Shown: piece by piece, positions 1-6,734 of the stretch
Layout: each line of letters begins with the position of its first letter
Numbering within the stretch: position 1 is the first letter of the stretch
UHGV virus genome: UHGV-0318484
Strand: one strand, 5' to 3'
DNA length: 6,734 bases
Origin: a virus
Position numbers and translations under genes: made by a program
Notes under the pieces: generated by a model
What the model saw: only the letters and a program-made list of their open reading frames with translations
What the model was told of the DNA's origin: nothing
Database searches by the model: none

Positions 1-501
1 ATTTCCGCCGCAGGTGAGTCTTGGCGGTAAAAATGTGGCCTGGCTGCACTCTGAAGTCACCGCATGGATGGCCGGGCGCATTGCCGGACGCAAACGGGGG
101 TACGACGCATGATGATGCCTGTTCTGCAAAAACTCCCTTTTTCTGGCTTGCCTTTTTCCGGCATTTGCGGATATAGTTTTTCCGTTGCCGCAAAATCGGC
201 AGCCGGGCGTGAGAACCCGAGTATGTTATCGGCGACATATGACGCGCCATGCGTCTTTTTTTGTGTCGCAATCAACGCCACAGAGCACCAGATTATGGTG
301 TGGCGTGTGGTTTGCCGTGCAGGTATGATCCTGTTCGCAATCGCATGTTATGCCTCTGAGTCAATGGTAGCTCAGGCGGGGCAGCCTCCGGGCTGGCCGG
401 TTTCCGATAACGCCGGTATTCTCACCCCCGTCTGGGCTATCGCCATCGAGCGTGAGAACTCCGGCGATAGCGTCATTTACGCTGTTATCGGAGGTTGCCT
501 T

Positions 502-2420: not shown

Positions 2421-3779
2421 ATGCCAAATAACTACCATCAATACATCGAAGACGTTAGTGATGATATAAAGACATGTCTTGAAGGAATGGGATGCCAACC
2501 CATACTTTTTGTTGGATCGGGATTAACCAAGAGATATCTTTCTGGCCCAAACTGGGAAGAACTTCTTCAGCAACTTGCTAATGAATGTCCTAACATCGAT
2601 AAAAGATTTGCCTATTATAAACAGAAATACCCCGAGTTGATTGATATCGGCAGTGTATTTTCTGATTCTTATAACGAGTGGGCATGGGGTGATGGAGAGA
2701 AAGAATTTCCAGCAGAGTTATTTGATGCAGGCAATGAGCCAAGTATTTATTTTAAATACAAAGTATCTAGTATTTTCAACTCATTGTTACAAGAAAAAGA
2801 AATCGTAAACAACGGTGAAATTGAACTTCTGAGAAAGATTCACCCTCATTCAATCATCACAACAAATTACGACAAATTACTTGAATCGATATATCCTGAG
2901 TTTACCCCCATTATAGGCCAAAAAATCCTTTACGCTAATCACGGTAGCATTGGTGAAATACTTAAAATACATGGTTGCTGCTCCACTCCTGAAAGCATAA
3001 TAATAAACCGCGATGACTACGATGACTTCATAAAGAAGAAGAAATATTTAAGCGCAAAACTGCTTACTTTCTTTGCTGAACACCCTCTTCTATTTATAGG
3101 TTACAGCGCAGAAGACTCGAACATAAAAAACATACTATCTGATATTGATGAACTACTTTCAGAAAATGGAGATGTCATTCCAAATATATACATTTTAGAA
3201 TGGACGAGCAAACAAAATGAAAGTGAATACCCACGCCGTGAACGGCTGATTCAAGTATCTGCAAACAAAAGCATTAGAATAAAAAGTATAGTAGCAAATG
3301 ACTTCTCTTGGGTATTTTCAGCGTTTGGCGCGAACAGAGCACTTGATAACATAAATCCCAAATTATTGAGGGCACTTTTAGCTCGCACTTACGATCTCGT
3401 CAGAACTGATATACCTCGCAATCCTGTCCAAGTTGATTACCGAGTTTTATCAAGCATTAGCGAGTCAGAAGGTGAATTAGCGAAATTATATGGTATCGCC
3501 ACATCGTCAGATGGTATGGCATTTAATGCCAGTTATCCTTTTACTTTAACCACGCTAGGGCAATCACTTGGTTTCAAAGGCTGGCATGATGCGAACAAAC
3601 TATTAGAAGTAGTTAAAAACATCACGAACGTAGACATCAAGACATTCGATAACAAATACCACTATGCAATAATGAACGGTGATGAGATTCAGTCCCATAG
3701 ATATTCAAACTATCTTCGAGAACTCCTCGAAAAGGTTAGGGATGGAGAGGAGTTTGAGTTAGGAATAAAGGCTCCATAA
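2421..3779 (+). CDS. SIR2-like (sirtuin/DHS-like NAD-binding fold) protein, 452 aa, with an unassigned C-terminal domain of about 200 aa; candidate NAD+-depleting anti-phage effector in the P4 int-cos hotspot
   Basis: AAGGAG (2409-2414) 6 nt before ATG; only 27 nt after the int stop. Motifs typical of defence-associated SIR2 domains (as in ThsA, DSR, SIR2-HerA): PILFVGSGLTKRY (Gly-rich NAD loop, aa 27-39), ITTNYD (Asn at about aa 149), KIHGC (His at about aa 184), LLFIGYSAEDSNI (aa 223-235). Markedly AT-rich compared with neighbours. Terminator follows. Confidence 0.85.
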   Translation: MPNNYHQYIEDVSDDIKTCLEGMGCQPILFVGSGLTKRYLSGPNWEELLQQLANECPNIDKRFAYYKQKYPELIDIGSVFSDSYNEWAWGDGEKEFPAELFDAGNEPSIYFKYKVSSIFNSLLQEKEIVNNGEIELLRKIHPHSIITTNYDKLLESIYPEFTPIIGQKILYANHGSIGEILKIHGCCSTPESIIINRDDYDDFIKKKKYLSAKLLTFFAEHPLLFIGYSAEDSNIKNILSDIDELLSENGDVIPNIYILEWTSKQNESEYPRRERLIQVSANKSIRIKSIVANDFSWVFSAFGANRALDNINPKLLRALLARTYDLVRTDIPRNPVQVDYRVLSSISESEGELAKLYGIATSSDGMAFNASYPFTLTTLGQSLGFKGWHDANKLLEVVKNITNVDIKTFDNKYHYAIMNGDEIQSHRYSNYLRELLEKVRDGEEFELGIKAP

Positions 3780-3830: not shown

Positions 3831-3966
3831 CACAGCATTATTCATGCTTCTAGCACGATATGATGAACCGCAATAATCATAGCTAACAGGATTAATTTAA
3901 AGCATTACTCCTCGACTGAAGCGTGCTGTCATGCGAAAAAAATTTAAACTACCACGTTAGCGCGCA

Positions 3967-3985
3967 GTGCTTTCCCCGCCTCGCC
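3967..3985 (-). other. cos site: 19-nt P2/P4 cohesive-end sequence (GGCGAGGCGGGGAAAGCAC on the minus strand)
   Basis: Plus strand reads GTGCTTTCCCCGCCTCGCC, the exact reverse complement of the recalled P2/P4 cohesive end. Position between the accessory region/int and psu matches P4 genome organisation (left end cos-accessory-int; right end sid-delta-psu-cos). Confidence 0.8.
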
Positions 3986-4087
3986 CGCCCGCTTTGCGGG
4001 GCGGTTTTAATGCAGTTGCACTGACACGCTCAGACCGCGCCGGGAATGGTGCGGTCTGCAGAAAATGAGGCAGGAAAACGCATGCAA

Positions 4088-4795: not shown

Positions 4796-5296
4796 TCATT
4801 CCAGACGCAGCGAATATGATTGTGTTTTTAACCGTACTGGCGGCAGTTCCTGTTTTTCATGCAGGCGTTCTGCCAGTTCGTCCGGTGTGACCGGGCGGAC
4901 AATGAAGCGGTTGATGGTCTGAAGCGTTTTAAACACCAGACCACATCCCGGATCCGTGCACACATAAAAACGCTCGGTGACTTCCTGAGACAGACGCCGC
5001 GATGTTCTTGACAGTGCAAGGCCTTTACATCTCCGACAACAATATCCGGTAACAAGCATTCTTTTCGGGCGTTTCATACTACCGGAGGCTGACGTCAGTG
5101 AATCGCGGTATCTCTGTTTGCCTGAAATGTATTCCATTCCTGAATCTTTACAGTCAGAGAAAAAGCTTTCACTCGCTTCAAATGTCGCAGAGCAATAAAT
5201 ATTCCGGCACTGTGCAATCATTATCTTGGTGCCATCGTCCATGAAATGTGCGCGACGGGTGTGAGCAACATGTCCACACGACGGGCAGTAAATCAT
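4796..5296 (-). CDS. delta: Delta, late-gene transcriptional activator (tandem Ogr-like zinc-finger domains), 166 aa
   Basis: Two Ogr-like Cys motifs (CPSCGH...CRNIYC and CCRRC...CTDPGC); length matches P4 Delta. Its start overlaps the sid stop in ATGA (5293-5296). Confidence 0.92.
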   Translation of the reverse strand: MIYCPSCGHVAHTRRAHFMDDGTKIMIAQCRNIYCSATFEASESFFSDCKDSGMEYISGKQRYRDSLTSASGSMKRPKRMLVTGYCCRRCKGLALSRTSRRLSQEVTERFYVCTDPGCGLVFKTLQTINRFIVRPVTPDELAERLHEKQELPPVRLKTQSYSLRLE

Positions 5297-6027
5297 GACA
5301 GCAGTCCTCTGGCCTTAAGCTCTGCTCCCTGCTGGTCTATTTTGTCCTGCCACACCTTGCGCTGTGCCGGTGTGCCTGCCACCTCATAATCCATGTGCGG
5401 GAGTGTTGCCGCTGACAGTCCGGTCAGCCGGAGAACCGGCTCGCCGGTGAGGCTGATTTGCATCTGTTTTATTTTCTGTTCCAGCGATGATTTCACCTGC
5501 TGCATGACAGCCTTTTCCGGCGCGACGTAGCCCTGATGGCCGGTGGTGTTGGCGAGCGGATTTTCCTGTACCAGGATACTCAGATGCATTGCCCGGACAA
5601 GCGCCTCACAGGTTTCATTCAGGGCGTGTTCCAGCTCATGCTCTGCATACAGACTCAGAAGGTGATGATGTGCCTTCCGGTAGGCGGTGGCCGTGCTGTC
5701 ACACGCCCCTTTCAGGCGTTCACGTTCGAAATTCAGCACCACGGCCAGATTGTCATATTCCTGTACCAGCTCCCGGCGTGCCACGCGCTCAATGTGGCGC
5801 TGTTTCAGCTCGTCGCTCAGGACACCACCGGCTGCACGAAAGGCCGTGCGCCAGTCGTCAGCGTCGTTTCCGTCGGCCTGCGCCAGCGCATTTTTTTCCT
5901 GCTCTGCCCGTTCAATGGCCGTGATGGTCTCATCCATCAGGCGGGCGTTCTCAAGATGAGCGGCTCTGGCCTTTTCCAGTTGTGCCAGCGCGGGTTGCAG
6001 ATATTCAGGGATGGTGTTGTCAGACAT
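5293..6027 (-). CDS. sid: Sid, capsid size-determination (external scaffold) protein, 244 aa
   Basis: Sequence MSDNTIPEYLQPALAQLEKARAAHLENARLMDET... matches P4 Sid. Start placed at ATG 6027 (GAGGAG 7 nt upstream) rather than the in-frame GTG at 6045 used by the ORF track. Confidence 0.88.
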   Translation of the reverse strand: MSDNTIPEYLQPALAQLEKARAAHLENARLMDETITAIERAEQEKNALAQADGNDADDWRTAFRAAGGVLSDELKQRHIERVARRELVQEYDNLAVVLNFERERLKGACDSTATAYRKAHHHLLSLYAEHELEHALNETCEALVRAMHLSILVQENPLANTTGHQGYVAPEKAVMQQVKSSLEQKIKQMQISLTGEPVLRLTGLSAATLPHMDYEVAGTPAQRKVWQDKIDQQGAELKARGLLS

Positions 6028-6061
6028 TTTCCGGCTCCTCGTCACTTCAGGTTAAGAAAAT

Positions 6062-6117
6062 TGTGACGTACACCGGACAACAACACGACGCATTGCAGAT
6101 GTGCCAGCCCTGACACA
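6062..6117 (-). promoter_or_regulatory. Psid-type late promoter with two TGT-N12-ACA activator (Delta/Ogr) dyads
   Basis: TGTGCCAGCCCTGACACA (6100-6117) is centred about 81 nt upstream of the sid ATG, consistent with a -55 activator site. A second dyad, TGTGACGTACACCGGACA (6062-6079), is centred 38 bp closer. P2/P4 late promoters are defined by TGT-N12-ACA near -55. Confidence 0.6.
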
Positions 6118-6196
6118 GGAGACTCATCCTCAGACCGGCAAGCCAGGAAAAGGTCGCAGGAAAAACCGGCTTACTGTTTGTTTTTTTATATTTTAC

Positions 6197-6300
6197 TGTT
6201 CACCTCTGTTCACCATAAGAAAAAAGATAAGTAATACAGTAAGTTAAATGGTGAACAATCGCAGTAATGACTGTTCACCGTCTGTTCACCACTGTTCACC
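6197..6300. repeat. Iteron cluster: five direct and one inverted exact copy of TGTTCACC; candidate replication origin (P4 ori/crr-type alpha-binding sites)
   Basis: TGTTCACC at 6197, 6207, 6272, 6283 and 6293; the inverted copy GGTGAACA at 6250; degenerate copies (TGTTTACT, TGTTTGTT) flank. Spacing of 10-11 bp between neighbours. The octamer matches the recalled type I iteron bound by P4 alpha primase-helicase. Confidence 0.7.
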
Positions 6301-6404
6301 CGCTCATGGACTTTTTGTGCTGTTTACTACTGTTTGTTTTTATTAATTCGCCGGGAATGAATAAGAAGAAACGATTTGTATTTCACTATAAAAATTACGA
6401 ATTG

Positions 6405-6434
6405 CTTTAAGTGGCTTTAAATGACTTTAAGTGG
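6405..6434 (+). repeat. Three tandem 10-bp units (CTTTAAGTGG / CTTTAAATGA / CTTTAAGTGG); possible regulator-binding array upstream of the rightward late promoter
   Basis: Direct reading of the sequence; helical-turn periodicity; ends 26 bp before the TGT-N12-ACA at 6460. Confidence 0.3.
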
Positions 6435-6459
6435 GAATGAACAAAAAACACACAGTCAT

Positions 6460-6477
6460 TGTAAGGCGGCCGGAACA
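6460..6477 (+). promoter_or_regulatory. TGT-N12-ACA dyad; candidate activator site of a PLL-type late promoter driving the AlpA/Vis-like gene
   Basis: TGTAAGGCGGCCGGAACA; a -55 site here would put the transcript start near 6523, about 57 nt before the ATG at 6580. Divergent from Psid, as in P4. Confidence 0.4.
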
Positions 6478-6579
6478 AATCCCCCCTGTTGCGTCTGCCA
6501 AAAAGATTCACAAAATAAAGCGCTACCCGAAGCCGGACGGACTTATCCGGTGCTGTATGGACATTAACGAGGTAGCCCG

Positions 6580-6734
6580 ATGCAAGCTGTTTTTTCTTCC
6601 CCGTCTCCCTCCCCTGTGACGCCACTGATGCCGCTGCCGGACATCACGCAGGAGCGTTTTTTACGTCTGCCGGAAGTGATGCACCTGTGCGGCCTGTCAC
6701 GTTCGACCATCTATGAACTCATCCGTAAGGGGGA
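6580..6734 (+). CDS. AlpA-family HTH protein (Vis/excisionase-like regulator), 5' partial; runs off the window end
   Basis: GAGG (6569-6572) 7 nt before ATG at 6580. Translation MQAVFSSPSPSPVTPLMPLPDITQERFLRLPEVMHLCGLSRSTIYELIRKG contains the AlpA-type helix-turn-helix signature. In P4 the vis gene occupies this position. Confidence 0.8.
   Translation, partial: MQAVFSSPSPSPVTPLMPLPDITQERFLRLPEVMHLCGLSRSTIYELIRKG

What the first reader, a model, noticed from the sequence alone, without database searches (positions are those of the whole stretch)
6046..6530. Divergent late-promoter region with three TGT-N12-ACA dyads
Two dyads lie upstream of sid, at positions consistent with -55 and about -17, and one lies upstream of the AlpA/Vis-like gene on the opposite strand. 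This matches the P2/P4 late-promoter activator signature (Ogr/Delta). The expected chance frequency of the pattern is about 1 per 4 kb, so three in under 450 bp is notable. I recall that P4 Psid and PLL carry an extra dyad near -18; this is from memory and unverified.
Basis: partly seen in the sequence, partly recalled or inferred. Interest (0 to 1): 0.4.

Follow-up and report, generated by a model that had tools for sequence, protein, structure and literature searches.

The report
Known P4 satellite late-promoter control region
This stretch is the well-studied divergent late-promoter and replication-origin region of a phage P4-type satellite prophage, nearly identical to P4 itself, so the three dyads are real but the feature is ordinary.

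Summary
Exactly three perfect TGT-N12-ACA dyads occur in the window (6062-6079, 6100-6117, 6460-6477), and all three lie in the 552-bp sid-vis intergenic region.

The window as a whole is not enriched for the pattern. The clustering is unusual: P is about 0.01 for any 485-bp span and about 0.002 given the local base composition.

The region is 96.9% identical to phage P4, and the Psid side is base-for-base identical. P4 carries the same three dyads.

Conservation in other P4-like elements differs by dyad:
- Distal sid dyad: perfect in 48 of 48 distinct sequences, with 15 different spacers. This is a strong footprint of an activator site.
- vis-side dyad: perfect in the P4-type clade and one other lineage.
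- Proximal sid dyad: perfect only in the P4-type clade. All other variants read TGT-N12-AGA, because its ACA overlaps the predicted -10 hexamer.

Transcript starts and activator dependence were not testable with these tools. The feature is already known and of low interest.

The parts
6100..6117 (-). Distal Psid dyad TGTGTCAGGGCTGGCACA (read on the sid strand). It is the activator (Ogr/Delta) site, centred about -55.5 from the predicted sid transcript start and 81.5 nt from the sid ATG.
   Evidence: Perfect match. Identical in P4. Perfect in 48 of 48 distinct P4-like Psid sequences with 15 spacer variants. Same distance as the annotated P2 activator sites.
6062..6079 (-). Proximal Psid dyad TGTCCGGTGTACGTCACA, centred about -17.5. 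Its ACA lies inside the predicted -10 hexamer. It is a possible second Delta site whose role is uncertain.
   Evidence: Perfect match. Identical in P4. Perfect only in the single P4-type 18-mer; the 14 other variants read TGT-N12-AGA. A Delta footprint at -18 is recalled from Julien and Calendar 1995 and was not verified here.
6060..6065 (-). Predicted Psid -10 hexamer CACAAT, with a predicted transcript start near 6053. Other P4-like clades have CAGAAT here.
   Evidence: Read directly from the sequence. The consensus scan found no sigma-70-type promoter with a good -35 in 5950-6734, as expected for activator-dependent promoters.
6460..6477 (+). PLL dyad TGTAAGGCGGCCGGAACA. It is the activator (Ogr/Delta) site, centred about -55.5 from the predicted vis-operon start and 111.5 nt from the vis ATG.
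   Evidence: Perfect match. P4 has TGTAAGACAGCCTGAACA, with three spacer changes and intact half-sites. Among 42 distinct P4-type sequences the half-site columns are nearly invariant while spacer columns vary. At this fixed offset, TGT occurs in 85 of 103 and ACA in 48 of 103 distinct P4-like sequences.
6489..6516 (+). Predicted PLL core: TTG-containing -35-like TTGCGT (6489-6494), a 16-nt spacer, and -10 CAAAAT (6511-6516). The predicted start is near 6523-6524. It contains the degenerate TGC-N11-ACA at 6496-6512, the only candidate for a -18 site.
   Evidence: Read directly from the sequence. TGC-N11-ACA is present in 42 of 42 P4-type sequences, and TG(A/G/T)-N12-ACA in 42 of 61 others. The ACA was part of the pattern used to fetch those loci, so only the left half is informative.
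6197..6300 (.). P4 replication origin type 1 iterons TGTTCACC, six copies: 6197-6204, 6207-6214, 6250-6257 (inverted), 6272-6279, 6283-6290 and 6293-6300. By established knowledge of P4 these are binding sites of the alpha primase-helicase.
   Evidence: Repeat family D1 and inverted repeats I4, I5 and I11. Annotated as 'ori type 1 repeat' at the matching positions of X51522 and NC_001609.
6402..6434 (-). Three tandem 10-bp repeats. They are annotated as 'ori type 2 repeats' in P4 and match the P2 Cox-box consensus TTAAA(G/C)NC(A/C) on the minus strand. This is the Cox-binding region upstream of PLL.
   Evidence: Repeat family D3. P4 annotation. Two perfect Cox-box matches and one with a single mismatch at 10-nt spacing, 6402-6430. 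The Cox-box consensus and Cox binding upstream of P4 PLL come from PMC3936717.
5293..6027 (-). sid, the capsid size determination gene (244 aa). [quoted passage not shown]
   Evidence: ORF list. P4 annotation of the sid product, AA 1-244.
4796..5296 (-). delta (166 aa), the two-finger Ogr/Delta-type transcription activator encoded in the Psid operon.
   Evidence: Pfam Ogr_Delta, E = 6.8e-22, two matched stretches.
6580..6734 (+). 5' part of vis/ORF88, an AlpA-family HTH regulator and excisionase. It is the first gene transcribed from PLL and is cut off by the end of the window.
   Evidence: Pfam Phage_AlpA, E = 3.1e-7. P4 ORF88 annotation.

Best explanation
The interval is the divergent late-promoter control region of a P4-type satellite prophage: Psid reads leftward into sid-delta-psu, and PLL reads rightward into vis and the early/replication genes.

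Proposed mechanism:
1. A zinc-finger activator, either Ogr from a P2-type helper or the element's own Delta, binds the TGT-N12-ACA dyads centred about 55 bp upstream of each start (6100-6117 and 6460-6477).
2. The bound activator recruits RNA polymerase to promoters that lack a usable -35 element.
3. Because delta lies in the Psid operon, activation feeds back positively.
4. The second sid-side dyad (6062-6079) overlaps the spacer and -10 of Psid. It is most likely an auxiliary Delta site that is not needed for activation.

The same intergenic DNA carries the alpha-protein iterons of the P4 origin (6197-6300). It also carries Cox boxes (6402-6430), through which the helper's Cox protein switches on PLL.

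Shown here: the sequence identity with P4, the positions of the dyads, their conservation pattern, and the presence of delta. Inferred from established P2/P4 biology: activator binding, transcript starts and regulation.
For: - Identity with P4: 96.9% overall. The alignment shows all three dyads in P4, and 6019-6214 is identical.
- P4 annotation places sid, ORF88/vis, the origin iterons and the type 2 repeats at the matching positions.
- Delta carries two Ogr_Delta fingers, and vis is AlpA-like.
- The P2 record annotates activator-binding sites and transcript starts. The 5-of-6 matches to the dyad lie 55.5-57.5 nt from those starts, and the same geometry fits the predicted -10 hexamers here.
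- No sigma-70 consensus promoter was found in 5950-6734.
- The distal Psid dyad is perfect in 11 of 11 E. coli elements down to 68% identity, and in 48 of 48 distinct IMG/VR sequences with 15 spacers.
- The PLL dyad half-sites are conserved while the spacer varies.
- Literature: TGT-N12-ACA and Ogr dependence of the P2 late promoters (PMC3931495). Ogr trans-activates P4, and Delta is an Ogr homologue (PMC7552001; PMC8628076). Cox binds upstream of PLL through Cox boxes (PMC3936717).
Against: - No transcript start, footprint or reporter data exist for this element. The public P4 records do not annotate Psid, PLL or the activator sites.
- The total number of dyads in the window is not above chance.
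- None of the four P2 late sites is a perfect TGT-N12-ACA. Several P4-like clades have N11/N13 spacing or no ACA at the PLL position. The six-base pattern is therefore an idealisation, not a strict requirement.
- The proximal dyad's ACA coincides with the -10 hexamer and is AGA in every other variant, so it could be incidental.
Confidence: 0.92

Rival explanations
1. The proximal sid-side dyad (6062-6079) is not an activator site. It is a by-product of two separately constrained core-promoter elements: the conserved GTTGTTGT block at about -31 to -24, and the -10 hexamer. A single G-to-C change (CAGAAT to CACAAT, plus-strand G6063) in the P4-type lineage happened to complete a TGT-N12-ACA.
For: - Only one 18-mer, the P4-type one, is perfect. 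All 14 other variants are TGT-N12-AGA, with a conserved CAGAAT and a highly variable spacer (alignment).
- The TGT is part of a GTTGTTGT block that is conserved in every clade.
- The site sits where bound protein would be expected to hinder RNA polymerase rather than help it.
Against: - From memory of Julien and Calendar 1995 (PMC177091, not held), Delta footprints a second site near -18 at the P4 late promoters. This was not verified.
- The perfect form co-occurs with the two-finger 166-aa Delta in 42 of 43 loci, and the AGA form with one-finger Delta in 38 of 38. This correlation is confounded by shared ancestry, and locus L040 breaks it.
Confidence: 0.35
2. The three dyads are a chance cluster in an AT-richer, T/G/A-biased intergenic region and have no sequence-specific function.
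For: - The whole-window count of 3 is ordinary (46 of 200 shuffles; P = 0.25).
- The origin iterons TGTTCACC inflate TGT frequency locally and produce one-mismatch hits.
- P4 has two further perfect dyads elsewhere in its genome.
Against: - The clustering has P of about 0.002-0.01.
- The distal dyad is invariant across 15 spacer variants at a fixed distance from sid.
- The PLL half-sites are conserved at a fixed offset.
- The geometry equals that of the annotated P2 activator sites.
Confidence: 0.03
3. The dyads serve replication or recombination proteins, such as the alpha primase-helicase, Vis or Cox, rather than the late activator. They lie inside the annotated P4 origin fragment.
For: - The P4 rep_origin feature (9086-9809) spans window positions of about 5801-6524 and so covers all three dyads.
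- Cox boxes lie 30 bp from the PLL dyad.
Against: - The annotated origin repeats are the TGTTCACC iterons and the 10-bp type 2 repeats, not the dyads.
- The Cox-box consensus TTAAA(G/C)NC(A/C) is unrelated to the dyad.
- The dyads sit at promoter-like distances from the two start codons in every element, even where the DNA between them has diverged.
Confidence: 0.05

Closest known systems
Bacteriophage P4 late promoters Psid and PLL (X51522 / NC_001609, about 9030-9583)
   Same: Same locus. Overall identity is 96.9%, and the Psid side (6019-6214) is identical. All three dyads are present at the same distances from sid and vis. The flanking genes, origin iterons and type 2 repeats are the same.
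   Different: - The PLL dyad spacer differs at three positions (AAGGCGGCCGGA here, AAGACAGCCTGA in P4). A few substitutions lie in the origin and in the PLL -35/-10 spacer.
- Elsewhere the element differs from P4. A SIR2-like gene replaces gop/beta/cII, and no tRNA gene precedes int.
Bacteriophage P2 late promoters PP, PO, PV and PF (Ogr-dependent)
   Same: Partial dyad with a left half TGT, centred 55.5-57.5 nt upstream of annotated transcript starts. The promoters depend on an Ogr/Delta zinc-finger activator. PP and PO are arranged divergently (PMC3931495).
   Different: - The P2 sites are 5-of-6 matches (TGT-N12-CCA, or CAA), never perfect.
- PP and PO share one site, whereas Psid and PLL are 360 bp apart with separate sites.
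- No -17 dyad is present in the P2 promoters.
Other P4-like satellites of Enterobacteria with one-finger Delta (phiR73-type lineages)
   Same: Same sid-vis divergent layout. All have a perfect distal Psid dyad at the same distance, a conserved GCAATGNNTCG...GTTGTTGT block, and the conserved PLL core ATTCACAAAATA.
   Different: The proximal site is TGT-N12-AGA. The PLL upstream element often has N11/N13 spacing or lacks ACA. Delta has a single finger and is 72-87 aa long.

Membership tests
Ogr/Delta-dependent late promoters of P2/P4 | Element of dyad symmetry approximating TGT-N12-ACA upstream of the promoter | tested here: met
   Perfect matches at 6100-6117 (sid side) and 6460-6477 (vis side). 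The consensus is stated in PMC3931495.
Ogr/Delta-dependent late promoters of P2/P4 | Dyad centred about 55 bp upstream of the transcript start | tested here: inconclusive
   The geometry fits the predicted -10 hexamers CACAAT and CAAAAT (centres at -55.5). It also equals the 55.5-57.5 nt seen in the annotated P2 promoters. No transcript start is measured or annotated for this element or in the P4 records.
Ogr/Delta-dependent late promoters of P2/P4 | Poor match to the sigma-70 -35 element (activator-dependent core promoter) | tested here: met
   The consensus scan found 0 promoter-like sites in 5950-6734. Only weak hexamers are visible by eye.
Ogr/Delta-dependent late promoters of P2/P4 | Cognate C4 zinc-finger activator of the Ogr/Delta family available (in cis or from the helper) | tested here: met
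   delta at 4796-5296 matches Pfam Ogr_Delta with E = 6.8e-22 in two stretches.
Ogr/Delta-dependent late promoters of P2/P4 | Transcription requires Ogr or Delta and is blocked by the host rpoA109 mutation | not testable with these tools
   This needs reporter or transcript assays. It is known for P4 and P2 from the literature (established knowledge; PMC7552001 and PMC8628076 state trans-activation by Ogr/Delta).
Ogr/Delta-dependent late promoters of P2/P4 | Half-sites conserved among relatives while the spacer is free to vary | tested here: met
   Distal Psid dyad: 48 of 48 perfect with 15 spacer variants. PLL within the P4-type clade: half-sites vary in 1 of 42 sequences, spacer columns in up to 6. 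The PLL right half is not conserved outside two lineages.
P4 Psid/PLL specifically (orthologous locus) | Located between sid and vis/ORF88, with the P4 origin iterons in between and near-identity to P4 | tested here: met
P4 Psid/PLL specifically (orthologous locus) | Second activator site near -18 at both promoters (recalled from Julien and Calendar 1995, unverified) | tested here: inconclusive
   Psid has a perfect dyad centred at about -17.5. PLL has no perfect dyad; the best candidates are TGC-N11-ACA at 6496-6512 and the one-mismatch TGT-N12-AAA at 6487-6504. The source paper is not held.

The most novel reading that the evidence does not exclude
The -17.5 dyad of Psid is a derived feature of the P4-type lineage. 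A single G-to-C change in the -10 hexamer (CAGAAT to CACAAT) created it, and it travels with the tandem two-finger Delta. It may let the covalently duplicated activator occupy the -55 and -17 sites together, giving Delta-specific tuning or autoregulation of sid-delta-psu. One-finger Delta/Ogr proteins would not exert this control. Parsimony across 15 site variants supports the change being derived. The functional link is speculation, and one recombinant (L040) already uncouples the two traits.
Probability: 0.15. Interest if true: 0.3.

Novelty: already known. Interest (0 to 1): 0.1.

Why it matters
It matters little beyond annotation. The finding correctly marks where helper-dependent late transcription of a P4-type satellite starts, and the same DNA is present in about a fifth of complete E. 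coli genomes (1068 of 5426).

Practical value:
- The public P4 records and the RefSeq prophage annotations do not mark Psid, PLL, their activator sites or the Cox boxes. The coordinates given here can be transferred to them.
- The comparative result gives a cleaner definition of which bases matter for Ogr/Delta recognition than the six-base mnemonic does. The distal Psid dyad is universal, the PLL dyad is lineage-dependent, and the proximal dyad is specific to the P4-type clade.

Tried and rejected
- Relatives through the Sid protein in species-representative genomes: only one locus was returned, 99% identical, so it was uninformative. I switched to E. coli genomes and to a DNA-pattern scan of IMG/VR.
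- Classic P4/P2 promoter papers: Julien and Calendar 1995 (PMC177091), Halling and Calendar 1990 (PMC213327), Saha et al. 1989 (PMC287370), Christie and Dokland 2012 (PMC3518693) and Christie and Calendar 2016 (PMC4836473) are not held. Several full-text searches returned nothing useful. The -18 footprint and the mapped transcript starts therefore rest on memory.
- Promoter annotation in the P4 records: there is none. X02534 carries only 1984-era 'consensus -10' guesses, one of which falls inside the distal dyad.
- Rfam scan of 5950-6734 at a permissive threshold: no RNA family was found.
- Sigma-70 consensus scan: no site was found.
- Perfect dyads at the P2 late promoters as a positive control: none is perfect. 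I re-read them as 5-of-6 matches anchored on the left TGT.
- A perfect second dyad at PLL: absent in the window, in P4 and in all relatives.

Full report
**Observation**

A search for TGT-N12-ACA finds exactly three perfect matches in the 6734-bp window:
- 6062-6079, TGTGACGTACACCGGACA
- 6100-6117, TGTGCCAGCCCTGACACA
- 6460-6477, TGTAAGGCGGCCGGAACA

The total for the window is ordinary. The expected count is 1.65, 46 of 200 dinucleotide shuffles reach three, and Markov simulations give P = 0.25.

What is unusual is that all three fall in the 552-bp gap between two divergent genes:
- A span of 485 bp holding three or more occurs in about 1% of simulated windows.
- With the composition of the intergenic region itself (42.8% GC, expectation 0.25), three or more occur in about 0.2% of simulations.

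On sequence statistics alone the cluster is suggestive rather than compelling.

**What the region is**

The stretch 5900-6734 is 96.9% identical to bacteriophage P4 (X51522, NC_001609, X02534). A pairwise alignment shows that P4 has the same three dyads. Bases 6019-6214 are identical to P4, and the vis-side dyad differs from P4 only at three spacer positions.

The P4 annotation transfers directly:
- sid (244 aa) starts at ATG 6027 on the minus strand.
- ORF88/vis starts at ATG 6580 on the plus strand.
- Between them lie the six 'ori type 1' iterons TGTTCACC (6197-6300) and three 10-bp 'ori type 2' repeats (6405-6434). The repeat finder recovers both sets independently.

Pfam gives these assignments:
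- delta (4796-5296) is an Ogr/Delta zinc-finger protein with two fingers.
- psu is confirmed.
- The vis fragment is AlpA-like.
- int is a tyrosine integrase.

The window is therefore a P4-type satellite prophage, laid out as int, hotspot gene, cos, psu, delta, sid, ori, vis.

**Geometry**

The dyad centres lie 43.5 and 81.5 nt from the sid ATG, and 111.5 nt from the vis ATG.

On the sid strand, the proximal dyad's ACA sits inside a hexamer CACAAT (6065-6060). If that hexamer is the -10, the start is near 6053 and the dyad centres fall at -17.5 and -55.5.

On the vis side:
- A TTG-containing hexamer (6489-6494), a 16-nt spacer and CAAAAT (6511-6516) predict a start near 6523-6524.
- This puts the dyad centre at -55.5.

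The consensus promoter scan finds no sigma-70-type promoter anywhere in 5950-6734. That fits promoters that need an activator.

As an external control I used the annotated P2 genome (AF063097), which records activator-binding sites and transcript starts for its four late promoters:
- None of the four sites is a perfect TGT-N12-ACA.
- Anchored on the left TGT, they are 5-of-6 matches: TGT-N12-CCA for PO/PP and PF, and TGT-N12-CAA for PV.
- They are centred 55.5, 55.5, 56.5 and 57.5 nt from the annotated starts.

The predicted geometry here is therefore that of proven Ogr-dependent promoters. The transcript starts of this element remain predictions.

**Comparative evidence**

The intergenic region occurs in 1068 of 5426 complete E. 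coli genomes, at identities from 100% down to under 70%. Ten of these elements were fetched.

A scan of IMG/VR with a conserved piece of the PLL core (ATTCACAAAATARAGNGCTACC) brought in 120 more P4-like loci. Neither selection used the dyads. The one exception is the ACA inside that core motif, which matters only for the putative -18 site of PLL.

Results for each site:
- **Distal sid dyad.**
  - It is perfect in all 11 E. coli/P4 sequences.
  - It is perfect in 48 of 48 distinct Psid segments, with 15 different spacers, always at the same distance from sid.
  - The sid genes themselves are too diverged to align.
  - This is the footprint expected of a protein-binding site whose contacts are the outer triplets.
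- **vis-side dyad.**
  - TGT is present at the fixed offset in 85 of 103 distinct sequences.
  - ACA at N12 is present in 48 of 103, which are the P4-type clade and one other lineage.
  - Other clades have TGT-N11/N13-ACA palindromes or no right half.
  - Within the 42 distinct P4-type sequences, the half-site columns are nearly invariant while four or five spacer columns vary.
- **Proximal sid dyad.**
  - It is perfect only as the single P4-type 18-mer.
  - The 14 other variants all read TGT-N12-AGA, because their -10 hexamer is CAGAAT rather than CACAAT.
  - The TGT belongs to a GTTGTTGT block that is conserved everywhere.
- **Second site at PLL.** No perfect dyad exists in the window, in P4 or in any relative. 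The best candidate is TGC-N11-ACA at 6496-6512.

**Mechanism**

Ogr from the helper phage, or P4 Delta, binds the -55 dyads and activates the promoters.

Literature available here supports several pieces:
- The P2 late promoters share TGT-N12-ACA and depend on the zinc-finger protein Ogr (PMC3931495).
- Ogr trans-activates P4, and Delta is its homologue, acting on both P2 and P4 late genes (PMC7552001; PMC8628076).
- P2 Cox activates PLL by binding an upstream region made of Cox boxes, TTAAA(G/C)NC(A/C), spaced 10-11 bp apart (PMC3936717).

The three 'ori type 2' repeats match that Cox-box consensus on the minus strand at 10-nt spacing (6402-6430; two perfect, one with a single mismatch). Only one other perfect match exists in the whole window.

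The interval thus integrates four inputs:
- Ogr/Delta at the dyads
- Cox at the Cox boxes
- the alpha replication protein at the iterons
- Vis at PLL (from memory of Polo et al. 1996, unverified)

These points are inferred from established P2/P4 biology and were not shown here:
- activator binding
- contact with the RNA polymerase alpha subunit
- positive feedback through delta

**The proximal dyad**

The paper is not in the held library, so this remains unverified.

The comparative data allow an alternative: the dyad is a by-product of the conserved GTTGTTGT block plus a lineage-specific C in the -10 hexamer. I give that alternative about one chance in three.

One side observation: the perfect form co-occurs with the two-finger 166-aa Delta in 42 of 43 loci, and the AGA form with one-finger Delta (72-87 aa) in 38 of 38. 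Shared ancestry confounds this correlation. One recombinant locus, L040, combines the P4-type Psid with a one-finger Delta.

**Comparison and verdict**

This is the orthologue of a textbook regulatory region, nearly identical to the reference, so it is already known.
- PLL lacks a perfect second dyad.
- The six-base pattern is an idealisation. The P2 sites are imperfect, and the PLL sites of other clades use other spacings.

Interest is low. The only mildly new material is the conservation pattern of the three sites across P4-like satellites.

Noticed in passing
window 6197-6300 and 6402-6434: The interval flagged for its dyads also contains the P4 replication origin: six TGTTCACC iterons and three 10-bp type 2 repeats. 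The type 2 repeats match the P2 Cox-box consensus TTAAA(G/C)NC(A/C) on the minus strand at 10-nt spacing. The 'origin' repeats and the Cox-binding site upstream of PLL therefore appear to be the same DNA.
   Followed up: partly
window 2421-3779 (+): A 452-aa SIR2-like protein sits between int and the cos region, where P4 has gop/beta/cII. It matches Pfam SIR2_2 (E = 4e-27) and the PADLOC candidate defence family PDC-S25 (E = 2e-84). This fits the known defence hotspot of P4-like satellites. A genome whose sid-vis region is 100% identical carries a Kiwa KwaB-like gene there instead (L005).
   Followed up: partly
window 171-447 (+): Rfam hits above the gathering score lie upstream of the integrase: the a1/b1 targets of C4 (171-223), isrK (184-261) and the C4 antisense RNA (360-447). 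This is a P1/P7-type antisense immunity module. No tRNA or tmRNA gene precedes int, unlike the tRNA-Leu site of P4 (L005). The left flank may belong to another mobile element.
   Followed up: no
IMG/VR loci L015-L134; window 6062-6064 and 4796-5296: Across P4-like elements, the perfect proximal Psid dyad (-10 hexamer CACAAT) goes with the tandem two-finger 166-aa Delta (42 of 43 loci). The TGT-N12-AGA form (CAGAAT) goes with one-finger Delta of 72-87 aa (38 of 38). Locus L040 is a recombinant with P4-type Psid/sid and a one-finger Delta.
   Followed up: partly
window 6533-6552 (+), vis leader: An inverted repeat CCGGA-N8-TCCGG lies in the predicted PLL leader. It is retained, with changes on both arms, in diverged elements (CCGGACGGACACGTCCGG in L006, CCGGACGGACACGACCGG in L007-L009). 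It could be a leader hairpin or a protein-binding site.
   Followed up: no
L003 (P2 AF063097) 3063-3080, 10243-10260, 17561-17578: None of the four annotated P2 late-promoter activator sites is a perfect TGT-N12-ACA. They read TGT-N12-CCA (PO/PP and PF) and TGT-N12-CAA, or TGT-N11-ACA, for PV. The five perfect matches in the P2 genome all lie elsewhere. A strict pattern search would therefore miss every genuine P2 late promoter.
   Followed up: yes
window 3957-4032: A 70-75-bp stretch is 91-93% identical to P2-type phages (Escherichia phage P2 and pro147). This is presumably the cos packaging site shared with the helper, located between the hotspot gene and psu.
   Followed up: no
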